64,000 nt of DNA, taken from NCBI GenBank assembly GCA_965645245.1, contig OZ287068.1, positions 2,852,001 to 2,916,000 on the forward strand, read 5' to 3'. This document shows positions 6,369-56,165 of the stretch, piece after piece (positions within the stretch are counted from its first letter, which is position 1; every line of letters begins with the position of its first letter). The position numbers were made by a program, and so were the translations under genes. Under the pieces are notes generated by a model. That model saw nothing but the letters and a program-made list of their open reading frames with translations, did no database searches and had not been told where the DNA came from. The stretch comes from Massalongia carnosa (taxonomy: Eukaryota).

Positions 6369-7973
6369 GTTAGTGATAGGATGTTTGCTTAAAAGAAAAT
6401 TTAATGAAGAGAATTTCCTTTTGAGATTTGCAACACTTGCGGCGATTTCGTGCCTGCTAACTAGCGGAGTTTGCCTGCCCCCTGAGTATACCTCCGAGGC
6501 TATGGCCGATAGAAGATAGTTATCGGAGGTGCTTTCCCTGGAAAGAAAAGGGTTATTGTAAAGTTCAGAAAGAGCATTCTAATTTACTTGCTACCCATGA
6601 ATCTCCATGAATCTACAAATATCCTAGATAGCCGATACGAGATATGCTTGTGGTAAAGGAACATATCGTTGGGAATCGAAGAACCATGGAAGCAAAAAAT
6701 ATTCACGGGTGGCATGATTTGGCTATCGTATAGCTTCGAAGAAAGGCTAGCTCTTAGCTTACTCCCAGCTTTGCCACCGGGAAAAATCAGAACATGCGCC
6801 TTCCAAGGATTGCCTGAAGTTGCTAACGTTAAACAGAGTTTAAGGCTATCACTTGAGCAACACCAAAATAGATAGCTAGATATGAGGAAAGAACCCAAAA
6901 TTGGCAAGACTTTGGATCTGGTAGAATGGCTCTTGTGGGATGACGCTCTCAACAAGAAGCAATTCTCGAGGAGCGATGGCAACCGCCTCGTTGGAAGTCG
7001 ATCAGAATCTTACTTTTCGTCCATTCACGCTTCATTTCTTGATTTGAGGCTTATCACGGAATATTTTCTCTGATAGGATTGGAATCCAACACTCATTGTG
7101 ACCTGTTACTATTGTCTTGGATTACTGGACGTCTTAATTCTTTCTTAAAGGGCATGGCTGAACCAGCATGATGGATAAGCCCAAGGTAATAACAATACGC
7201 ATCTCCAAAATGAACACGACTTTTCAAATCAAAAATGCTGCTGCCTTTTGGGAAGTGATTCGGAAATTGCACACCTGGGTGATCATCAAAAGATATACGC
7301 TTTCATGGCTTCAGGAAGACATAAATCTTACATAGAAGTAACACTGACAGGCCCATGAGAAAGACGATAGGAAACACAAGTGAAGATGTCGCTCATTGGA
7401 GATAAAGAAAGCCCGTTGAAGCCCGCGAAGAATTGCTAAGGAAAAAGGTACAGTGTACAATAGCTATGTCCACGAACTACGCGAAACACTCGTCTCTCAA
7501 CGAAGGAATCAGTGCCGGGAAGCAGAGGCACAACCAGAAACAGCCCCCCCCCCCTATATCTTACATGCAGAATACGTACTGGTCATGATGCTTAGAAGTA
7601 TCTGCGAGTCACCAGCCGTCAACAGCATTTCGAATAGAGGTCACACATCTCACTCTCCCCTACAGCTTGTTGGTTGTCTCAGCGGCGACTGAAGAACCAT
7701 CTCGGCTTCTCATGCAAAAGTTGCCGAGCTATAGATTGCATGCTTGAAAAGCTCATGCAATAAATCTTCAGGTCGCTGGTGACAGTAACATGGAGCGGGA
7801 TGACTCCAATGAACCTTATCCCGCGCCCTAAAAAAAAGCCGCAATTGTATGAAAGCCTCCAGGCATTAGTCAATCTTTACAATATAAATCCTTCGATCTC
7901 ATCAATCTACCCACCTCACCTACCTACCGCCAACTCCTTTTCCCCAATTCCCCCCACAAGTCAAAGAAACAGA

Positions 7974-8390
7974 ATGTCGAGAATCCTCACTCCGTTCATC
8001 GCCTCCCGCCTCCTTGTTGGCTTACTAATTGTCACCCTTCTCGAAGTCAGCACGAAACTTCTCCTCCTTCCTCCCTCATCTGGGCCCTTGGTGACCATCA
8101 TGCGCTGCTGCGGCGGGCGCGAATTCGTCCTCGGTGCGCTTCTTTACGCAACCGTGAATGTTAAGAAAGATGGGGAGCCAAGGTTTCAGCGGCAGGCGCT
8201 GCTGGCGGGCGCGGCGGTGGATGCGCTGGACGCGCTGATTCTTGTTGCGTCGTGGGCGCTGGGGGAGATGGGTGGGGCGCCGGCGGTGGTAACTGTGGGA
8301 GGCGCGTGCATGAATCTCTTGATGGGACGGGCGTGTTGGAGGGGGTTGGTGGGAAGGAACGTAGGGGGGAAGAGGTTACAGTACGGATAA
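7974..8390 (+). CDS. Small membrane protein, DUF4267-like
   Basis: ATG at 7974; several hydrophobic helices; GGREFVLGALL and AVDALDAL motifs resemble this family. Confidence 0.55.
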   Translation: MSRILTPFIASRLLVGLLIVTLLEVSTKLLLLPPSSGPLVTIMRCCGGREFVLGALLYATVNVKKDGEPRFQRQALLAGAAVDALDALILVASWALGEMGGAPAVVTVGGACMNLLMGRACWRGLVGRNVGGKRLQYG

Positions 8391-8476
8391 GAGGATAGAC
8401 GCTGTGCGTGTATTTGTACAGTTGGGTTTGGGTTTTTCTTCACTCGATTTAATTTGTTGACTGAGAGACGGGGGTG

Positions 8477-8517
8477 CACACGGGGACCAAAAAAGTTGCG
8501 ACACCAAAATTTTCACC
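8477..8517 (+). mobile_element. Solo terminal-repeat remnant of the CAC-ended Tc1-like family
   Basis: CACACGGGGACCAAAAAAGTTGCGACACCAAAATTTTCACC aligns with the TIR at 10902 (CACGCGGGGCCAAAAAAAGTTCCCACACCAAAAATTTCACC). No partner end was found. Confidence 0.7.
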
Positions 8518-8614
8518 TCGTAGGGGTGGGTTGGTTTATCAGGTATTCGATGCCAAGCATTTTAACTAGTGCGTATCTCCCCGCCCAACGCAGTTCCACC
8601 TCCACTCTCCACCA

Positions 8615-9244
8615 ATGCCGCTCCCCCACCCCCTCACATTTATTTCCTCTCTTTTCTCCTCTCCCACCTGTGGTTCCACTGTTCCAATCTCCCCGGCCAC
8701 AACTCCTCTCCTCCTTACCCTCCATTGCCTCTTCCCGAGCGACCTCCTCCCCGCCCTCGACCTCTTGGACCGCCGCCTTGTTACCCGGTTTGCCCTACAG
8801 GCTCCATCGCTTGTTGCGGAAGCCAATGTCAGCCCCAAGGATTTGCCAAGCCGGCCGCATGAGACACAAAAAACCTCAGTCTACTACGTGCGCTCCTCGC
8901 AACGACCTCGATCAGGCTCTAGGCACAAGATAGCCAGCACTAGCTACGAGGTTAGGCTTCAAGCTTGGAATTGCAGTTGTCCGGCATTCGCATTTGCTGC
9001 GTTTGAGTTTGAGAACGAGGGGGTGAGGGGGGTTACGGAGCGGTGTGATGAAGATGATAGCGAGGGAACCCGGGCAGAGGATAGGTTTGGGGGCTTGACT
9101 TTAGTGGGGAGAGAAGTGCCGGTTTGCAAACATTTGCTTGCTTGTTTGCTGGTTAACAAGGTAGGGGGCTATGAGGATTTTGTAGAAGATAGGGTGGTGG
9201 GGAGGGAAGAGACGGCTGGGTGGGCGGCTGGATGGGGAGGATGA
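8615..9244 (+). CDS. sws1: SWIM zinc-finger protein, Sws1/SWS1-like (Shu complex)
   Basis: YEVRLQAWNCSCPAFAF ... PVCKHLLACLL gives the CxC...CxH SWIM motif in a short intronless ORF. Confidence 0.75.
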   Translation: MPLPHPLTFISSLFSSPTCGSTVPISPATTPLLLTLHCLFPSDLLPALDLLDRRLVTRFALQAPSLVAEANVSPKDLPSRPHETQKTSVYYVRSSQRPRSGSRHKIASTSYEVRLQAWNCSCPAFAFAAFEFENEGVRGVTERCDEDDSEGTRAEDRFGGLTLVGREVPVCKHLLACLLVNKVGGYEDFVEDRVVGREETAGWAAGWGG

Positions 9245-9611
9245 GGTGAGGGATTTCTAACAGCGGAGGATTGACAGAGGACTTGGCCTATGAGAGGATG
9301 AGCGATGCTGCGTTTGCCATCTGCCTAGTATTTCTTCAAGCTGGTCTGGAAATGATTTGAAGGCTCGAAATAACTTTAAGACGACATCAAACTCCGACCT
9401 GACACCTTGCAAGGTCTTTCGAGAGGCGGCAGGTTTGTGCAAATGCCTGAAGGCCCTAAATTTGTCATCGATCTGCTAGAGCCGACCACTCGACCAGCTA
9501 GTCGATGCCAACGTCATTGGGGTATCCTCTATGATACATAGTACTACCCGAGGTCTAGGAATGCCCACATTCCAATCGCTAACCACATGCAAAATCCGGG
9601 TCGTACATCGA

Positions 9612-10771
9612 TTATTTTTCCTTACTACTCTTCTCGTCCTCTTTCTCATCTTTCGCATCTCCATTCAAAATGCCACTAGCCTTTTTGGGGTCCTTCTCAT
9701 CCTTGCCATCTTCCTTCTTAGAGTCTTTTTCTTCTTGCTGATGCCGATTTTGTACCTTGTTCTCTATCAGGTCATGGAAGGCTGTAATTGCTCGTATTAG
9801 ACTACTCAAATATATTGCCATTAGCTGATCGTTCGTCTTTATGCTCATCGCTCGCGCTAGTTCGGTATTCTCGCTATATTGGTTCTCGGATCCGCTAGCT
9901 TGAGGTGTGGCTGTAGGGTTTGATAGGTTAGGAAGGAGATTAAATACGTCTTGGAGGTTGCCTAGTATCGCATGATTGACAGGCAGCTCTCCATCGATGA
10001 CTTTCTGGAGATACTGCCCTATATCTCGTAATCGAAGATGTAGACCTTGGAGCGATTGTAGCTGAGAGGTAATCCGCGTTGAAAGCGTACCGACCGCAAC
10101 ATCCCGGATATCCCGAAGTAGGTGTTCAACTCCTATCTCTTCGGCCTCTTCGGCCTCGATTATTGAAGGGGTATGTACAAAGGTCTTAGTTGTAGTTGTT
10201 CCATCCTAGGGGTAGCTAATCAGCCCGAAGCTCAGCGCCATGCATGAGATTTTGTAATACGTACATCTTTGATTTCTTCCACGGCAAAGTAGGCGTCTGT
10301 AGGCACACCAACCTCCTTGGGCTGTACATCAATGATGACAAGAAGCGGGTTAGGCGTGTATCGTTTGAAAAGCTCATTGATCTCGAGATCGGATGCTCTT
10401 AGTTTAGGCCCCGAGTGATACCATCCAATGAGCTTCTCCCGAGCATTGACTTTTTTGAACATGTCGTTCATCGATTCGACATAGTTATGATCTAAGAACC
10501 ATACTGAGGGATCTTTCTCGTCCTCCTCGAAAGGAACTAAATAACCTAAGTTTAATGAACACGTTGCGCAAAGAAACAGCTACTAACCTGCGAAACTATT
10601 TGACACTCGAACATTCGTTCCGTCATTCTGTCCTAATAAAACGCCAACCACTCGTTTTCGTAGTGTTTTACCAGATCGCCCAAAATGGTCTGCTGCTGAG
10701 AGGAGAACGAGAGGCGCAACAGATACGTTCCGCGTGACAAGTGATAGTGTCTCCGCAGTAGTTGTAGGCAT
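9612..10771 (-). CDS. RPN8: 26S proteasome lid subunit Rpn8 (MPN domain), multi-exon
   Basis: [59 protein letters not shown]; charged C-terminal tail. Confidence 0.97.
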
Positions 10772-10835
10772 CACGGACGAGTTGAGAGATTATGAATGTT
10801 CTTGTATTAAAAGATATGATGCCTCTCGAAAAACC

Positions 10836-10857
10836 GAGCTTCATTTCGGTGAAGCTC
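10836..10857. promoter_or_regulatory. Inverted repeat GAGCTTCA-n6-TGAAGCTC 65 bp upstream of the RPN8 ATG; candidate proteasome-regulon site
   Basis: Perfect 8-bp arms are visible. The GAGCT core resembles the GGAGCT-type element reported upstream of euascomycete proteasome genes (inference). Confidence 0.35.
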
Positions 10858-10901
10858 ATATTGCGCTAGACTCGATTCGGGGCTAGCATAAAGTCGGCCC
10901 G

Positions 10902-12249
10902 CACGCGGGGCCAAAAAAAGTTCCCACACCAAAAATTTCACCCACCCTAAAAATCCTTCTTTTACCCAACTCCCTCATTATGAATAATCAATCATCAATT
11001 AATCGTTCTAGTACACCTGATTTTGATGATCATAACTGTAATCAGGAGTATTCTACGCCCATAAAAGCTAAAGTTCAAGCTGTTGTTGAATTTAATGATG
11101 CTCATAAAATTCTCTATTTAAAGAAGACGTTTTTCGTCATTTCGGCGTGGAACGAATGAGCGGTGATGCCATGCTTTGGGGCGAATCATCCCGTCGATTT
11201 CATCACAACTCGGTCTGGCCAGAGACTCGAGGTAGAAAAAAGCGATTGATTGGGAGACTCTCAAGAGACTGGAGGAAATAATTGAAAATGGAGGTTATTC
11301 AAGCTCGAGCTATGTCCTGGCATCAACTGGCCAAAGAAGTAGGCCTCGTGGGCAGTAATCGAGTGCATTGGCACACCATCAGAAATACTATGCAGGACTT
11401 GGAACATCACAAATGCATCGTTTGAACGAGGACCTGGATTGCTCCTCATCTTCGTGCTTTAAGACGTACTTTTGCACGAGATAAAATCACCACTTGGACA
11501 TTGGAGGACTGGAATTTGGTTCGTTTCAGCGATGAAGTTCATTTCGGGCTTGGTCCTCAACGCCGATTGCGCATTATACGTCGACCGGGTCAAAGAGATT
11601 GTTTTGACTGCATGCAGGAGGGGAAAGAGCCCGAAGAAAGAGTATAAAGCGTTTTCATTGCTGGGCGTGGGTGGGATGGAATTACAAATCAGATCAGATT
11701 TTTTACGAGGTTCCTGGAAACACCAATGGAAAGATGAGTCAAAGAGTTTATATAGACTCCATTTTGGAGCCTATTGTAAAGCTGTGTCTCGAGGTGAGTG
11801 AACGATTTGTTTTGGAGGAAGATGGTGATTCGGGGCATGGTTCAGCCAACAATAACAACATCGTACGGAAATGAAAGGAAGAAAACGGGTTAAAGTACTA
11901 CTTCAACGCCCCAAAAGCTCCCGATTTGTCCATCATTGAAAACTGCTGGCAGCCCGTCAAGCAGTGGTTATCAAAATCGGATCATTGGGACGATGAGACC
12001 ACTTTAGATGCAATTCGTACAGGGTAGAGGGATCACGTTCCCTAGGAATGGATCAATTCGTTAGTAGAGCAAATGCCACAACGCATGCATGATGTGCTAG
12101 ATAGAGAGGGTAAAATGACAGGACATTGAGCGATTTTTGTTGCATATAGTCGTGTATAATAGTGATTATTCATGATGAGGGAGTTGGGTAAAGAAGGATT
12201 TTTAGGGTGGGTGAAATTTTGGTGTGGGAACTTTTTTTGGCCCCGCGTG
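10902..12249 (+). mobile_element. Tc1-like (IS630/Tc1/mariner, DD38E) DNA transposon, full length, degenerate transposase, ~85-bp TIRs, 5-bp TSD GCCCG
   Basis: Ends CACGCGGGGCCAAAAAAAGTTCCCACACC... and ...GGTGTGGGAACTTTTTTTGGCCCCGCGTG. GCCCG lies at 10897-10901 and 12250-12254. Fragments FSDEVHFG, VLEEDGDSGHG and PDLSIIENCW are interrupted by stops and frameshifts. Confidence 0.93.
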
Positions 12250-12522
12250 GCCCGTTACCTGTCGTTCTTTCCATGCAGCTTCTCCTTTCTAAATAACTCT
12301 TACGTAAACTCTGCAGGGACACTGACAGAGACTTAATTTAATGCTCTCTACTAGATTTGATACAGTTATCATGTTAAAGCTTTTTAAAATGGCTGAGCCA
12401 TCAAACTCATAGCCAATTAATGAATTGATAACCAAGGAAAGTATTAAATTTAACGTGCTCTTCTAATGCCCTGGTCTCGTGTGGAGTAAGCAAGCAAGTA
12501 TGCACACAGTAAGAGACTTGAT

Positions 12523-14726
12523 TCATGCTGAACCACTCCGCTCTTTGGGAAGCCTTGCTGCAGACAGAGAATCGTCATTGCGCTCTTTGAAGGGCGCCAC
12601 CGTAGACAGCCCCCAAAAGACGACGAGTGCAACGATAAACCCAAAGAAGTATGAGAGGGCATATAAATGGTCCCAACCAGAACCATTGGCTGTTCCCCGA
12701 ACCTGACGAGCAAATCCAGCTGGTTAAATGGGTCAGTATTTGCAAAGTTCTAACCAGGACTAAAACTAGTCATTGGTACTAAGGGAGAAACATACGTAGA
12801 AGTGGCCAAAGACCCATGGCCCATGCTGTGAACGCACGCCAGTTGAAGCCTTTCGAATACCAATAGGCCGATGTCTTATTGCCAACATAAAGATCATCGA
12901 CGTATAAATTCTGCTTGCGGACAAGAAAATAATCGGAGATTAATATACCGGTCATTGGACTCTAAACACCATCAGCTCGAGAATCAGACGGTGGATTTAC
13001 CAAATAGCCATGCCTACCAAGAACACAGACCATGTAGAAAGCACTATTATGAAGGTTGTAGGTTGACTAGGGAGATATTAGATGAATTCGCCTCAAATAA
13101 CCATGGAGGTTGGATATACGTCACATAGTTCCATGGACAGGCAGCTACCGCAATGATACTTAATATAAAGCTTCCACGTCGGATATTGATATATTTTGGA
13201 CACAACGCTGCTAGATCCATTCCCCCGGAAACGCAGTTGAGCACAATGCAAAGCGCCATTTGGCTGGCAAGCAAACCCAACCCTGCAAAGAACGTCCCAG
13301 CTCTTGCACCAGATGACGCACTCCTCTGCTGGATTGTAAGAAGTAGCAAGAATGGATTCCAAAGATAGCCACCGTAAAGAGTCGCAGTTGCTGAGGTGAT
13401 AAGAAGGCCGCAGAGCGCAGTTATACAAATTGTCAATGGTGCCGTGATAGCTTGGCCGAATAGAGCAGCATTGGGGGTTTTGGCGTATCGTGTCCAATCT
13501 CCAAGAACAAGCAGAAGCTATCAGCCATCGGATTGGCAATTCGCCGAAAATATAACAAATGTAGGTTGTTTACCTGATTGCCCGAGACAACCGCTGGCAA
13601 AGGTCCCAAAAATAGACTGTAGCCCATAAAGCGAATTCCAATGGAGAACACTTCCTTTTTCCGACGGTCCTGTGTGGATTAAACTTCCAGCTCCATGAGC
13701 TGTAAGAAGCGACCAAATCAAGATACCAAACATTGTAGAGGTGATCATGGCGAACGAAACCTACAGTCAGGTTAACGAACTAAAATAGAAGCGCATAGGG
13801 AGTATCACTCTAAGTGGCACCTGCAGCCTCTCTGGAGGAATGAGGAGACATGGAACTATGACGTTATCAGAATATCCATTGACGAATAAAGGGGTAGCTA
13901 CCAAAAACTGCCATGAAAATGAAGAAACAGATTAAGGATGAGGTGTCGACATGAGCGGATAAGGGCAAAGTATTTCTCATGCTGAAGAACTTGGGCCCGA
14001 TCAAGGCCCCGAGAATTATCTTGATGGCTAGATCGACTATAGTTAGTATACCATATCACGAGGTAGAAACTAACTCACATTGACCGCCCCAATAGGCTTG
14101 AAGCCCCAGCTTTACCCCCATTCAGCCAGTCATTCGAGAACACTGGGAATGCAGATTCTCCAACCCATATGCTCGCAGTCATTATACGATTCAGTACCGG
14201 CCAGAACCCTCCTCTCATACCCCATGAGCTTGATTCTCGAGTCAGCTATGTATTAGCGGAGAGAAAATGCCACATCGTACGCTCTAGATAATACTGTGAA
14301 CCCTAAGTATTGGTGGCTTCCCATCCAACCGGCAACAACGGCAAGAATGGCAGTTAAAAGAGCGACCTAATACCAAGGAATCAGTTAAATCATAATTGCC
14401 AAGTTTAAGCAGCAGTCAACCCACCCCTACAATGACTCCCATACCTTGTCCAACGGACAGCCCCAAGGCTAACAAACTTGAACCCGCGGTCCATGATGTG
14501 GTGTTGACTCCTTGGACAGAGTTAGGATATATTAGCTGGACCAGGAGTCAACCATAAAACCCGTGATCACCCAATATCCAGCGAAACCCTGCCAGGTCCA
14601 TGTCCTCCTTTGATGCGGAATGGGGATTAGATCCCGGTTGCACCAGAAAGTATTCTCATAGTTTGCGTTTTCATCAACCGGACACTCGAGCTGCTTTGCC
14701 CATTGCTTAATTTTCACTTTGGTCAT
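12523..14726 (-). CDS. NCS1 family nucleobase:cation symporter (uracil/allantoin/thiamine permease, Fur-like), many introns
   Basis: NRDLIPIPHQRRTWTWQGFAGYW, DWTRYAK, GMDLAALCPKYINIRRG, PWN, FNWRAF; many transmembrane segments. Confidence 0.9.
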
Positions 14727-15635
14727 GTTTGAGAGCATTATCAATACAACTGCACAAATTTGTATCGTGACTTTTTATTTTTAAAACTATGAGCAGAGAA
14801 ACGGCCTTGAGTTCTCCCAGCTAAACTGCGGGGATTTCTTCTGATTTATATCAGAAGAACCTGCGAAAAGCACCGATGAACAATAAGCACAGCTTTGGAG
14901 CGCCTGAATAAGCTTGCATTGCATATTGGAGCGGTGTCCATGATAAAATTTCTGCTTCAGAGATTGGCTGCATACACATACCTCACCTCAACCTGCGTTG
15001 AGGAAGCGGGGGTGACGGATTCAAGTAACAGATGACTACGTGATACGATAGGATCTAGCGTTTTTGGTTAGTAATCTTGTAGTAGCTTCAATGGATGCAT
15101 AGACTCGAAGAGACACGTACCTATTGGTTGGTAATATATACTAGGGGAATTTTCAAAATGAGTACTAGTTATTAATACCATAGCACAGTCTTGAGATGCG
15201 ATTTGTTTAGCTTTTTATAATGTTAAAAAATCAAATGTGAGGTGAAAAGGTTTGGGTGGATGGCTTACCTAGATATACTTCTATCACGTGACTTAGCCTT
15301 CGGCTCGACGATATCGGTGAAACGAAAACAATTGTTTGTGCATGAAGGTAACCATTCAAAATTGTTGGATATCTAAGGATTATATATCAGTCTTCTGCAA
15401 TTGCAATCTTTGGAATGACAGAATGGTTTGAGACATCAGTTGAGCATATTCCGTGCTAAGAGCTCTGAAAGCGGGCATGGCGCGCTAGCCCTGCGCTTCG
15501 GGCGGAGAGACCTTTAGACATCCTGGTCGTGTAACTTTTCCCAACCACACCAACAGATCAGACTGCCAGCAGGCTTCCCATTGATAGACCTCTCCATCTG
15601 CCTTGGTCAAGCACTCTCATATATTTCCCTCTAAC

Positions 15636-44709: not shown

Positions 44710-46050
44710 CACGCGGGTGACAAAAAAAACTGCACACACAAACTTTCCCCGCACTTCTATCTTTGCAATCACCCTCAGCATCAATTGATTATATAATCGT
44801 ACCACCATAACTGAGCATGATAATGACGATGATGACGAAGATCATTATCCTACTCCAGTCAAATCAAAAGTTCAAGGTGCTGTCGAATTTTGCGAGCGCA
44901 TGAACATTCCTTACTTCCAAGAGGATGTTTTTCGAACTTTCAATGTCAGTCACCGTCGGGGCTGGGAATTTCTTCGCGATAATTCACCTTCTTCATCTTC
45001 TCGAGGAAGACATAATGATTCAAATCAAGAAGAGACTCGAGGTCGTAAAGGTCTCATTACTCCACGAAAAATTCGAGAAATGGAGCGTCTTTTAGAGGAA
45101 GAGGGCATAGAAACTCGCGCGTTGACTTGGGAGCAATTGGGCTATGAAGTTGGTTTAGACTGCACCGGACGAACAGTTCAGAGAGCTATGGGTACCATGA
45201 ATTATCACAAGTGTGTCTCTTGTAGAAAGGGCTGAGTCAACAAGAAAACAGCGAAAAGTCGAATGAATTGGGCTGAGATTATGCTTCATATATATCCTGA
45301 ATCGGAGGATTGGCATCACGTACGATTCAGTGACGAGGTGCATTTTGGCTGGGGTTCTCAAGGGAAATTACGAATAATTCGTCAATCAGGTACACGATAT
45401 TGTCAGGATTGCATTCAGGAAGCAGACGAACCGAATGAGAAAGATACAAAACGTCATCATTGCTGGGCCTCCGGAGGATACAATTTCAAGTCTGACATAT
45501 AATTTTACGAGATTCCTGGCAATTCGAATGAAAAAATGAGTCAAAAGGCTTACATCGAGCAAATTCTCGATCTCATTGTACTTCCATGGCTACAAGCAGG
45601 TCAGAATTTCGTTTTGGAAGAGGATGGTGATTCGGGTTATGGATCAGGCAAATCAAATATCGTACGCACTTGGAAGGAGAAACATGAACTAAAGCACTAC
45701 TTCAATTGCCCTTCGTCTCCTGCTTTGTCTTTCATTGAGAAATTGCTGGCAGTTTCCAAAACAACATCTTCGTAAATATCCACATTGGGACGATGCGACC
45801 ACTAAGGAGTTGATTTTAGAGGGATGGGGACCATGTTTCGCAGAGACTTATCAACGAAAAGGTAGCTACAATGCCTGACCGTCTCCGAGCAGTTATTTCT
45901 GGTGAAGGTAGAATGACTGGATATTGAATGAAGTATTTCGAATTCAATTGAGTATGTGTTTGATCAAATAATTATCGTGTAGATAGTAGTAAATTTGACG
46001 TGGTAGGATGGGGAAAGTTTGTGTGTGCAGTTTTTTTTGTCACCCGCGTG
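44710..46050 (+). mobile_element. Tc1-like DD37E transposon, full length, degenerate transposase
   Basis: TIRs CACGCGGGTGACAAAAAAAACTGCACACACAAACTTTCCCC and its reverse complement ending at 46050. FSDEVHFG, VLEEDGDSGYG and MTGY* fragments. Flanks CGGCC and GTAAG: no TA and no TSD visible. Confidence 0.92.
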
Positions 46051-47305: not shown

Positions 47306-47418
47306 AACTTGCTGTTTGATTACGTTGATATCCTAGATGAAGTTTGGTGAGAGTATTCGAGCTTAAGTGGAGTGCGACTGGCTGCTGTTGAGGGAATTAT
47401 GAACGAACAGACAGATTA

Positions 47419-47483
47419 TCCGTGCCACCCACATCGCTCGGGTCGCCTCGCTTAGGCGACCCGAGCGATGTAGGTGGCACGGA
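47419..47483. mobile_element. 65-bp hairpin MITE-like element flanked by TA
   Basis: TA|TCCGTGCCACCCACATCGCTCGGGTCGCCT-CGCTT-AGGCGACCCGAGCGATGTAGGTGGCACGGA|TA: 30-bp arms with one mismatch. Confidence 0.7.
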
Positions 47484-48828
47484 TAACGCTATAGCCAAAG
47501 GAGATTAGTGAGTGGGGATAGTTACAACGACAAGCTAGTTACAGAGGTTCGTAGTTCGTACCTTTGCGTATAACTACCTTAGCTGAGGTATATGATTTCA
47601 GATCAGAGAGTCTGAATACAACAAGGGCAGTAGTAGGTGGTGTTTTATCTGTTGTATAACTGTTGTTTAATTGTTTGGTCTCAATAAAGATCGATTGTTT
47701 TTCTGTTCGCCTGATACCATTAAATATTCAGACCCTCGCTGTAATAAGGCATCATATACCTATGTACTGGTACTTGACCGTCCAACTGCCTATTCAATCT
47801 CAATCTTCTAGCTGTCTTTTCTAATTGTCGGGTTTTCTACACTATATGATTAAATGCTTGCTTGCTTAGGTACCTACTCCTGTGGAAAGTTATGCACATA
47901 CTATTCTATATTCCGGCACGGTACTCACTGGATCTGTTGTACCCTCGGTTTCGTTTCTCTCTTTTTCTACTAAATGGTGTTATTTTAAGCTGCAAAAAAC
48001 TGGCAAGGACTCAAGAAGCATGTTATTGTTTCATATGTAGTGGAGATATTACTCCGCCTCTTGGAATATGCAATGTTCCTCTAGGCCAGCTTTGTCAGTC
48101 GCTTGGTTTGGTTGCAAGGTGTTTCTTTAGGCATTCATTAACTTATCAATATTTCCATATATTCATTCAGAACAGCTATTACTTAAACTGGAAATTATCA
48201 ACGTACTTTTCAGCTTAGGGATGCATAATTAGGCCCCTTTAAAATACTAGGCTTGAGTGTCAAAAATCTAGTATTTTATGATCCTTGCCTTCACCGGATG
48301 CTGTTGCTATCGGCTCAATGTCCCTGAAGAGTCTGGCAAGTTAAGTAATAAATAACTCCTGGTTTCTTGAGCTATTCGCCTTCTAAAGCCTTGCTCACCT
48401 GCATGTTGATTCAGCATTGGTCCAATATAACCTATAAAACTTCTTCGCTTTGTTTCCAGATTGTTTATTTCTCATCACTGAACATACCGGATGTTAGCCT
48501 ACATCCAAGACTACCCCTTCATCACTCTAGCTTTGACTATCCTACTTTTGGTATTCACGCATAGCGACAACACATTCTCATTATGCCTATCACATTTTGA
48601 AGTTCACCTAAGATATTGTTACACTCAATTCCACCTCACTTCACGTTTGCTTTATCAAAAAGATACAAAACTTCACCAGCCTTTCTGAAGGTGCTAAAGC
48701 TTTATTCTGCGCACTACCTAAGTCTCGCAGTTACTCTAAGCTACAAAAAAAATCGTGTGTTTGTAACTACTCTTCACTTGAACCTAGCGCTTTTCTTTGC
48801 TTATTGGGTCATGACATGATTAGCAGGT

Positions 48829-54873: not shown

Positions 54874-56165
54874 GAAACAGGCAGACACCAAAATAAGCGA
54901 ATATCATCAAATTTGAACTTGCTACCATCTATAAAACAATTACCATCCAGTCATCTTGCCATTCATGTCTAAAACGTCATCTATTCTTTTAGGCATTGAT
55001 TTGATCCATTCATTGATCGTTTCCTGAGAAAGACTGACCCAACCCGCCTTAATTGCAGCTATTGTGATTTCATCATCCCAATGAGGTTGACGACCTACCC
55101 GTTGTTTGGGCAGCTGCCAGCAATTTTCGATAGGAGAAAGATCGGGAGAACGAGGGCAGTTGAAGTAGTATTTTAGCCCATGCTCGTCCTTCCATCTTCG
55201 TACAGTATTGTCCTTCCCCGATCCATATCCTGAATCGCCATCTTCTTCCAACACGAAATTCGGGTCTGTTTCGAGCCATGTTTTTACTACCGGTTCCAGA
55301 ATGAAGTCAATATACACCTTCTGACTCATATTCCCATTCGAATTGCTGGGAACCTCATAAAAAATCAGCTCTGATTTGAAGTTCCACCCCACAGCAGCCC
55401 AACAATGATATCGTTTCTGTTTTTTGTCCTTCTCTTTAGGCTCATGTTGTTCCTGAATGCAATCCTGACACGTACGCTCGCCAGGTTTTCGAATGATGCG
55501 TAGCCTTCGTTGAGGTCCTCGTCCGAAATGAACTTCATCGGAAAAGCAAACTCTTTTCCAATCATTCAACGAGTATGTGTTTCGTTTGTTCCAAGCCCAG
55601 TCCTTTCGTGCAATCATCAAATCTTTCGGGACGTAGGTTTTTATGCATGCGAGACATTTACGATAGTTTCGTTCATGCATCGCTCGTTGTATAGTCCGCC
55701 AGGAGACGGAGGAAGTCTCAGCAGCTGCATTCAGTTGATTCCAGGTCAGTGATCTTCCCTCCAAGCCCCAGGTTTGCAATATTTCATTCATACGATCTAT
55801 CTGCTTCTTTGACAATTTGCGAGGCTGATCACGAGTCTCCGATTTTTTTGTATGACCATGCCGTCGATTAGTTTCTTGATCGTTGAGTATTTCATAACCT
55901 CGAGTATGTCTCACGCCGAAAAACTCGAAAACCTCTCGCTTTGAACGCAAAATCCCTTTCGCCTGCAATAATTCAATAGTGCCCTGAACTTTCGCCTTGG
56001 TAGGAGTAGTATGCTCAGTATTTATAGTGATTCGTGACTCTAGAACAGGCTCCATTGCTTATAAAGAATTGATAAAGGTGTGTATGTACGATGTAAAAAT
56101 TAAAAAACTAAGGTGTGGGTGGTGCGGGGAAATTTTGGTGTCCGCCTGTTTCTGTCACTCGCGTG
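54874..56165 (-). mobile_element. Tc1-like DD37E transposon with intact transposase; one TIR lacks its outer 13 bp
   Basis: The end at 56165 reads CACGCGAGTGACAGAAACAGGCGGACACCAAAAT on the minus strand. The other end retains only GAAACAGGCAGACACCAAAAT (54874-54894). Confidence 0.9.
54940..56055 (-). CDS. Transposase, IS630/Tc1/mariner superfamily (DDE_3-like, DD37E), 371 aa, uninterrupted
   Basis: HTH-like N-terminus; FSDEVHF, VLEEDGDSGYG, SPDLSPIENCW, SMPKRI; 37 residues between the second D and E (counted by hand). Confidence 0.93.
   Translation of the reverse strand: MEPVLESRITINTEHTTPTKAKVQGTIELLQAKGILRSKREVFEFFGVRHTRGYEILNDQETNRRHGHTKKSETRDQPRKLSKKQIDRMNEILQTWGLEGRSLTWNQLNAAAETSSVSWRTIQRAMHERNYRKCLACIKTYVPKDLMIARKDWAWNKRNTYSLNDWKRVCFSDEVHFGRGPQRRLRIIRKPGERTCQDCIQEQHEPKEKDKKQKRYHCWAAVGWNFKSELIFYEVPSNSNGNMSQKVYIDFILEPVVKTWLETDPNFVLEEDGDSGYGSGKDNTVRRWKDEHGLKYYFNCPRSPDLSPIENCWQLPKQRVGRQPHWDDEITIAAIKAGWVSLSQETINEWIKSMPKRIDDVLDMNGKMTGW

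What the first reader, a model, noticed from the sequence alone, without database searches (positions are those of the whole stretch)
10897..12254. Tc1-type transposon family with CAC...GTG ends and a 5-bp GC-rich TSD instead of TA
Seen: the element 10902-12249 has long TIRs starting CACGCG and is flanked on both sides by GCCCG. The related copies at 44710-46050 and ending at 56165, and the solo end at 8477, also begin CAC(G/A)CG, and none of the intact ends touches a TA. The transposase motifs (FSDE, EDGD-x-H/Y, PDLSPIENxW) are IS630/Tc1/mariner type. Established: Tc1/mariner elements almost always duplicate TA, whereas 5'-CAC ends with 5-bp GC-rich TSDs are hallmarks of Transib/ProtoRAG/RAG. 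Inference: this may be an uncharacterised fungal ITm lineage with different target capture and cleavage geometry. Caveat: a clean TSD is visible in only one copy; the 44.7-kb copy has none.
Basis: partly seen in the sequence, partly recalled or inferred. Interest (0 to 1): 0.8.

Follow-up and report, generated by a model that had tools for sequence, protein, structure and literature searches.

The report
Fungal Tc1 transposons abandoning TA targets
A lineage of fungal jumping genes related to Sleeping Beauty has dropped its family's textbook habit of inserting only at TA and instead duplicates almost any five bases, which offers a natural test of what sets where and how such enzymes cut.

Summary
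Confirmed and extended. The 1348-bp element at 10902-12249 has ~89-bp TIRs starting CACGCG and GCCCG on both sides. Of 77 two-ended copies examined in the own genome, 57 have an exact 5-bp duplication (47 different pentamers) and none is TA-flanked. The youngest family scores 25 of 25. A contig from another run lacks the element and has a single GCCCG. Metagenome relatives give 21 of 32 exact 5-bp duplications and no TA. The transposase is Tc1-type (DDE_3, Sleeping Beauty/Mos1 fold, mostly DD37-38E), not Transib. Relatives also end in CAAG or CTCG, so the 'CAC' likeness to Transib is incidental. The 5-bp group forms one clade (100/99). Its nearest relatives in the same genome duplicate 2 bp (TA, sometimes TT), so the 5-bp state is derived. 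Two protein changes track the switch: the clamp-loop tip that traps target DNA in Mos1/SB, and WPP replaced by YFN. Paired CxxC motifs do not track it. The target consensus T-D-N|S-C-W-G-S|N-H-A resembles HIV-1's in its flanks. The most likely mechanism is cut-and-paste with a 5-nt stagger (inferred, not assayed). No description was found in ten literature searches. Repbase and Dfam could not be checked.

The parts
10897..10901 (+). left copy of the 5-bp target-site duplication, GCCCG
   Evidence: sequence; single copy in the empty allele
10902..12249 (+). full-length 1348-bp Tc1-type element of the 5-bp clade (family of 9 two-ended copies examined, mean identity 97.8%)
10902..10990 (+). left TIR, about 89 bp, starts CACGCG
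10980..12129 (+). transposase gene, broken by frameshifts and stops in this copy; intact sister L004 encodes 383 aa, DD38E
12163..12249 (-). right TIR, about 87 bp
12250..12254 (+). right copy of the TSD, GCCCG
   Evidence: absent together with the element in run X1
8477..8517 (+). solo 41-bp end of a sister family (CACACGGGGACC...)
44710..46050 (+). diverged family member with perfect 41-bp TIRs, broken ORF, flanks not duplicated
54874..56165 (-). third family member with intact 371-aa ORF (54940-56055); last 13 bp of the 3' TIR missing
10232..10771 (-). 5' exons of a JAB/MPN-domain gene (RPN8 by recalled motifs); the element sits 130 bp upstream of its ATG; host context, not part of the element

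Best explanation
This is a self-encoded, cut-and-paste Tc1-type DNA transposon from a clade of filamentous ascomycete elements that descends from 2-bp (TA) duplicating Tc1 ancestors and has changed its integration geometry. Its 360-385-aa transposase binds the TIRs through N-terminal HTH domains and, presumably as a Mos1-like dimer, excises the element. It then joins the two 3' ends to target DNA 5 nt apart instead of 2, and host gap repair gives a 5-bp duplication. Strict TA recognition is replaced by a weak palindromic preference, T-D-N|S-C-W-G-S|N-H-A. SHOWN: TSD length and variability, empty site, Tc1 fold, one clade, 2-bp relatives, and which motifs changed. INFERRED: the dimer, the 5-nt stagger as the enzyme's own property, and the cause. 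The most likely cause is that the short clamp-loop tip (Mos1 R186/F187, SB H187), which stabilises the sharply bent, base-flipped TA target, was replaced by a longer charged segment, together with WPP becoming YFN before SPDL. That would hold a less sharply bent target across 5 bp. Ser285, at the SB P247 / HIV-1 S119 position, may read T(-3)/A(+7).
For: 57 of 77 own-genome copies have an exact 5-bp TSD, 65 have at most 1 mismatch, none is TA/TA, and there are 47 distinct pentamers. The youngest family scores 25 of 25, with 99.4% mean identity and 19 of 22 full-length copies having 360-361-aa ORFs. The empty allele has one GCCCG. Metagenome relatives give 21 of 32 exact 5-bp TSDs and no TA. Same-genome controls: canonical CAGT-ended Tc1 gave 15 of 16 rows TA/TA, one of them a metagenome locus; the CxxC family 9 of 10 TA/TA; the intermediate family 7 of 10 exact 2 bp and none 5 bp. 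Pfam hits are DDE_3 plus weak HTH_Tnp_Tc3_2, and the top fold matches are SB and Mos1. The clade has support 100/99 with trait columns removed. Motif census: none of 66 clade proteins has WP before SPD and none of the 52 parsed has the SGR/HGG tip, versus 79 and 56 of 107 comparison Tc1 proteins (alignment). Residue roles come from PMC5481204 and PMC8934666 (passages) and the HIV-1 consensus from PMC4005685 (passages).
Against: There is no transposition assay or complex structure. 20 of 77 own-genome and 11 of 32 metagenome copies lack an exact 5-bp TSD, and some fit 3, 4, 6 or 7 bp. The clamp loop (195-221) and linker (146-152) have pLDDT below 50 in the monomer model, so the structural argument rests on alignment. 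The motif-to-TSD link is a single evolutionary event and therefore not statistically independent. TSDs of the basal proteins (P0257, P0250, P0229, P0238, P0248) and of most of the 107 comparison proteins are unknown. Ser at D+3 also occurs in TA-duplicating relatives. The tree root rests on one long outgroup branch and moved.
Confidence: 0.85

Rival explanations
1. The element is Transib/CMC-like, or a chimera: Transib-type ends carrying a passenger Tc1 ORF and moved in trans by another transposase that makes 5-bp duplications.
For: It has CAC ends, a 5-bp GC-rich TSD, and a CCWGG-like core close to the cCASTGg preference reported for Transib-N1_AG (PMC1131882 passages).
Against: The ends are not the CACAATG heptamer and vary to CAAG or CTCG across relatives. 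The ORF fills the element and is intact in young copies. TSD type follows the transposase tree across many diverged families and samples. No Transib or RAG chain appears among the fold matches listed. I did not search the genome for a Transib transposase.
Confidence: 0.03
2. The boundaries are misdrawn, and the 5-bp repeat is part of the element or a by-product of insertion into pre-existing repeats, with a hidden TA or other short TSD.
For: About a quarter of copies lack an exact 5-bp match, and T/A are favoured at -3/-2 and +6/+7 around the site.
Against: There are 47 different pentamers beside invariant ends. Only 14 of 57 TSDs contain TA at any position. The empty allele lacks exactly the element plus 5 bp. 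Two non-matching copies (L049, L050) become perfect GCTAT and ACAGG duplications once an inversion between them is undone.
Confidence: 0.01
3. The enzyme makes a 5-nt stagger, but the cause lies elsewhere than the clamp-loop tip and YFN change, for example in a Zn-bridged CxxC/CxxC dimer interface, the Gly-rich insertion after the second Asp, or a host cofactor.
For: Both CxxC motifs are conserved (all four Cys in 53 of 66) and D2-E spacing is 37-42. The post-D2 region is a known target-contact site in SB.
Against: Both CxxC motifs occur in a TA-duplicating DD34E family. Both CxxC motifs plus a post-D2 insertion occur in the 2-bp intermediate family. Neither feature is therefore sufficient, though either may be a precondition.
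Confidence: 0.11

Closest known systems
Tc1 family (Sleeping Beauty, Tc1; DD34E) of the IS630/Tc1/mariner group
   Same: About 1.3 kb, single ORF, TIRs starting with C, HTH plus DDE_3 domains, SPDL-x-x-I-E motif; SB100X is the best PDB sequence hit (E 1.6e-5) and fold hit (E 6.7e-11).
   Different: Variable 5-bp GC-rich TSD instead of TA; DD37-42E; EEDGDSGHG for QDNAxxH; YFN for WPP; clamp-loop tip replaced; two CxxC motifs.
DD37E/DD38E Tc1 families (TRT, impala, Mosquito, Intruder)
   Same: Similar D-E spacing (TRT and impala as DD37E from PMC7325037 passages; Mosquito and Intruder from search listings only).
   Different: Those are recalled as TA-duplicating. No reference sequences were available, so they are not in my trees, and the spacing varies from 37 to 42 within this clade.
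Non-TA ITm relatives: Tc4/Tc5 (TNA), ciliate TBE1 (ANT), Zator (TWA)
   Same: ITm-related elements that depart from TA (TSDs recalled, not checked in a call).
   Different: Those duplicate 3 bp with fixed T/A; here 5 bp of nearly free, GC-rich sequence, inside fungal Tc1 proper.
Transib/RAG
   Same: 5-bp GC-rich TSD and many ends starting CAC.
   Different: Transib D-E spacing is 206-214 aa with a CACAATG heptamer; here 37-42 aa, Tc1 fold and variable ends.
hAT5/hAT6/hAT7
   Same: Precedent for a TSD-length shift inside one superfamily (PMC12730594 passages).
   Different: hAT has no fixed target dinucleotide to lose; here sequence specificity and stagger both changed.
HIV-1 integrase target site
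   Same: 5-bp duplication with T-D at -3/-2, W at the centre and H-A at +6/+7 (PMC4005685 passages).
   Different: Unrelated element type; the core here is C-C-W-G-G rather than G-T-W-A-C; convergence only.

Membership tests
Tc1/mariner (Tc1 family) | DDE transposase of Tc1/mariner sequence and fold | tested here: met
   Pfam DDE_3 E 2.8e-14; SB100X hit; Foldseek top matches SB, Mos1, SETMAR
Tc1/mariner (Tc1 family) | N-terminal HTH DNA-binding region | tested here: inconclusive
   HTH_Tnp_Tc3_2 matched below its cut-off (E 0.0029 and 3.3e-5); helical N-terminus in the model
Tc1/mariner (Tc1 family) | TIR-ORF-TIR layout of about 1.3 kb | tested here: met
Tc1/mariner (Tc1 family) | TA target-site duplication | tested here: not met
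   none of 77 own-genome and none of 32 metagenome copies TA/TA; empty site
Tc1/mariner (Tc1 family) | DD34E spacing | tested here: not met
   mostly 37 or 38, up to 42; one of 66 rows had 34
Tc1/mariner (Tc1 family) | phylogenetic descent from TA-duplicating Tc1-like elements | tested here: met
   one clade, 100/99, with the 2-bp family L289 on its stem; root uncertain; no named reference transposases in the tree
Transib/RAG | 5-bp GC-rich TSD | tested here: met
   TSD GC 0.635 versus 0.446 in flanks
Transib/RAG | RAG1-core-like transposase with D-E spacing over 200 aa | tested here: not met
   37-42 aa versus 206-214; fold search
Transib/RAG | CACAATG/CACAGTG heptamer end | tested here: not met
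   ends CACGCG, CAAGCG, CAAGTG, CTCGCG
DD37E/TRT, impala, DD38E/Intruder | clade membership with the named elements | not testable with these tools
   no named reference sequences were available from a tool
An existing Repbase/Dfam entry | catalogued with a 5-bp TSD | not testable with these tools

The most novel reading that the evidence does not exclude
This is an undescribed, widespread Pezizomycotina clade of Tc1 transposons in which the conserved bend-flip-trap recognition of TA was lost and the strand-transfer stagger widened from 2 to 5 nt, converging on an integrase-like target geometry. Living intermediates (strict TA, then relaxed 2 bp, then 5 bp) and intact young copies sit in one genome, so a few segment swaps could show what fixes stagger and specificity in Tc1/mariner enzymes.
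Probability: 0.55. Interest if true: 0.85.

Novelty: new variant of a known kind. Interest (0 to 1): 0.72.

Why it matters
TA duplication is used as a defining mark of Tc1/mariner. Re-designing that specificity is a stated goal of Mos1 and Sleeping Beauty work (PMC5481204, PMC8934666, passages), and the SB target-residue mutants described there still preferred TA-centred sites. A natural Tc1 transposase with a 5-bp, GC-rich, nearly free target, with intact young copies and 2-bp relatives beside it, makes the question of what sets the stagger directly testable. It could also supply a gene-tagging tool with a different bias (inference). Pipelines that require TA for Tc1/mariner, or that assign CAC ends with 5-bp TSDs to Transib/CMC, would miss or misfile this group and its MITEs (inference). 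The copy in the window is an insertion polymorphism 130 bp upstream of a proteasome-lid-type gene.

Tried and rejected
(1) CxxC pair as the cause of the 5-bp stagger: rejected as sufficient, because it is present in 2-bp families. (2) Gly-rich post-D2 insertion as the cause: not sufficient, because the intermediate family has one. (3) 'One extra base at the TIR tip relative to CAGT ends': dropped, since the distance from tip to A-run overlaps between groups. (4) Looking for the TSD of basal protein P0250: no relative in viral contigs and no close copy in the own genome (best identities 33-38%); the search did surface the intermediate family. (5) Runs X2, X3 and X5 gave no contig across the site: X2 and X3 contigs end inside the TIRs, and X5 is fragmented at low depth. 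(6) The best-scoring PF13358 loci (L129-L158) gave no usable TIR pairs, so the TSD of outgroup L132 is unknown. (7) The first tree grouped the CxxC-TA family with the 5-bp clade at SH-aLRT 99. With trait columns removed, the root fell between them, so I claim only the intermediate family as on the stem. (8) Literature: ten searches, of which eight sought a prior description and two sought mechanism papers. None of the listings or passages read described a Tc1/mariner group with a 5-bp TSD. Paracoccidioides TremH had an undefined target site but is a 1882-bp, 525-aa element and was not compared by sequence. (9) No complex prediction was run. (10) Earlier scan findings were not available.

Full report
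Observation. The window reads GCCCG at 10897-10901, then a 1348-bp element from CACGCG (10902) to CGCGTG (12249), then GCCCG again. The TIRs are about 89/87 bp with two indels and one mismatch. The ORF of this copy is broken. An intact sister (L004) encodes 383 aa. The 44710-46050 copy has perfect TIRs but unmatched flanks, and 8477-8517 is a solo end of a sister family. The element lies 130 bp upstream of a JAB/MPN-domain gene (RPN8 by recalled motifs) and downstream of an NCS1-type permease.

TSD census in the own genome. The genome is 52 Mb in 25 contigs. Three DNA searches and one end-pattern search gave loci L001-L128. This is a sample: alone counted 159 ends and listed 100. The script found 78 two-ended rows, one a duplicate offset of the same element, leaving 77. 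Of these, 57 have an exact 5-bp duplication, 65 have at most one mismatch and none is TA/TA. Exact matches at other lengths were 4 at 4 bp and none at 6-10 bp. Random re-pairing of flanks gives a mean of 0.94 (maximum 6 in 2000 shuffles). The 57 TSDs comprise 47 different pentamers with GC 0.635, against 0.446 in flanks. The copies fall into 19 clusters at 85% identity. The youngest has 25 of 25 exact TSDs and 99.4% mean identity, and 19 of its 22 full-length copies have 360-361-aa ORFs. MITEs of 243-265 bp share the ends and several have 5-bp TSDs. Against the pattern, 20 of 77 lack an exact match, concentrated in older families (one cluster scores 2 of 7). Two of these (L049, L050) are explained by an inversion between inverted copies, each originally with a perfect TSD.

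Empty site. Four runs were laid on 7000-15500. In X1, labelled a lichen metagenome and differing from the window at roughly 0.5% of flank positions, one 10.8-kb contig runs 8488-10901, then 13 letters equal to window 12255-12267, then resumes at 12269. It lacks exactly the element plus one GCCCG, with a separate one-base difference further on. The other three runs did not bridge the site.

Beyond this genome. Homologues are numerous (243 at E<=0.001; 551 representatives at E<=1e-30). The named ones are from Colletotrichum, Bimuria, Botrytis, Pyrenophora, Ophiobolus and Eremomyces. Of 80 metagenome loci, 43 had no paired ends under my filter, 2 lay at contig edges and 35 had flanks (32 distinct). 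Of those 32, 21 have an exact 5-bp TSD, 2 fit 6 bp, 1 fits 7 bp, 1 fits 3 bp and none is TA/TA. The end filter, C[AT][AC]G, was chosen after viewing an unbiased TIR scan. Among the 35 rows, 22 begin CAAG, 7 CTCG and 6 CACG, so CAC is not invariant.

Target preference. Over 57 sites counted on both strands: T at -3 in 78 of 114, A at -2 in 62, C at -2 in 1, C at positions 0 and 1 in 58 each, and A or T at the centre in 86. The consensus T-D-N|S-C-W-G-S|N-H-A recurs, more weakly, in the metagenome set. Its flanks match the HIV-1 consensus TDG|(G/V)TWA(C/B)CHA (PMC4005685, passages); the core differs.

The protein. Pfam gives DDE_3 and a sub-threshold HTH_Tnp_Tc3_2. The only significant PDB sequence hit is SB100X. 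The AlphaFold model (pLDDT 81.6) matches SB, Mos1 and SETMAR best. The triad is D185, D282, E321, with D-E spacing mostly 37 or 38 and up to 42. Transib has 206-214 aa there and a CACAATG heptamer (PMC1131882, passages), so membership of Transib fails.

Controls and ancestry. The same genome holds three 2-bp groups. Canonical CAGT-ended DD34E elements gave 15 of 16 rows TA/TA (one row is a metagenome locus; the miss is a mispairing). A DD34E family with two CxxC motifs gave 9 of 10 TA/TA, the tenth abutting a 5-bp element. An intermediate family (L289 type) has both CxxC motifs, an insertion after the second Asp and CAAGG ends; 7 of 10 have exact 2-bp TSDs (5 TA, 2 TT) and none 5 bp. A quick tree of 117 rows nested the 5-bp group among Tc1-like proteins. 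A careful tree used 90 rows: 11 composition outliers and about half of the generic Tc1 rows were left out, and the linker, clamp, post-D2 and YFN/WPP columns were dropped. It gives the core group 100/99 and places the intermediate family on its stem at 96/82. The root hangs on one long branch and moved between trees, but 2-bp families lie outside the 5-bp clade under both roots, so one gain of 5 bp is the simplest reading. Of the 18 element-derived rows labelled F5, six (L184, L189, L190, L194, L196, L207) had no verified exact 5-bp TSD of their own. No named reference transposases were available.

Mechanism. Cut-and-paste with gap repair follows from established Tc1/mariner biology. A 5-bp TSD implies a 5-nt stagger (inference). 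In Mos1, W159, R186, F187 and K190 stabilise a sharply distorted target with flipped adenines read by V214 backbone atoms (PMC5481204, passages). In SB, H187 corresponds to R186 and P247 to HIV-1 S119 (PMC8934666, passages). In the alignment, all 2-bp families keep a short K/R/H-S/H-G-R/G-type clamp tip and WPP, or close variants. The 5-bp clade replaces the tip with a longer charged segment and WPP with YFN: none of 52 parsed and none of 66, against 56 and 79 of 107 comparison proteins whose TSDs are mostly unknown. CxxC pairs and the post-D2 insertion predate the switch. I therefore propose loss of the TA trap and a wider, less acute target bend, with S285 possibly reading T(-3)/A(+7). This rests on one evolutionary event, the relevant loops are low-confidence in the model, and Ser at that position also occurs in TA relatives.

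Novelty. Ten searches and passage reads of 14 papers found no Tc1/mariner group with a 5-bp TSD. No paper was read whole. The six held supplement files of PMC7325037 had no hit for five motifs; other files and bioRxiv supplements were not seen. hAT5/6/7 are a precedent for TSD shifts within a superfamily. The 3-bp exceptions Tc4/Tc5, TBE1 and Zator are recalled, not checked. Repbase and Dfam could not be searched and subscription papers are missing, so prior cataloguing remains a real possibility. Verdict: real, a Tc1-derived variant that fails the TA and DD34E criteria, probably undescribed; interest 0.72.

Noticed in passing
L289-L294, L323-L334 (e.g. G000:C4:1141734-1143070): Tc1 family with CAAGGTTGGGTGAC ends and relaxed 2-bp TSD (TA in 5, TT in 2 of 10 pairs), usually in a G-NN-C context; phylogenetically on the stem of the 5-bp clade.
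   Followed up: partly
L259-L275 (e.g. G000:C11:2262327-2263418): TA-duplicating DD34E Tc1 family with asymmetric ends and two CxxC motifs (linker and clamp loop), a possible Zn site; the motifs are absent from most other Tc1 proteins retrieved.
   Followed up: partly
L049/L050 (G000:C12:909 kb and 920 kb): About 10-kb inversion between two inverted copies, shown by swapped TSDs.
   Followed up: yes
L002/L003 (G000:C6:2494661 and 2501308): Two copies 6.6 kb apart sit at the same site of a short repeated sequence (about 100-160 bp shared each side) with the same TSD but opposite orientation: a hot spot or a TIR-mediated flip.
   Followed up: partly
L004:1374-2978: The intact family copy lies at the centre of a 127-bp inverted duplication whose outer ends are ends of a TA-type Tc1 element.
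   Followed up: partly
L105, L326: 5-bp elements inserted at the very tip of 2-bp Tc1 elements; one forms an 8-kb composite with matching TSD.
   Followed up: no
L044, L093, L099: Copies with an extra CA/TG between end and TSD; possibly traces of excision and repair with a 2-nt end overhang.
   Followed up: no
L090, L101, L111, L115, L119, L120: 243-265-bp MITEs with the clade's TIRs.
   Followed up: partly
window 47416-47486: 33-bp near-perfect hairpin with a 5-nt loop.
   Followed up: no
window 10772-10901: The insertion is polymorphic and lies 130 bp upstream of a JAB/MPN (RPN8-like) gene; effect on expression not tested.
   Followed up: partly
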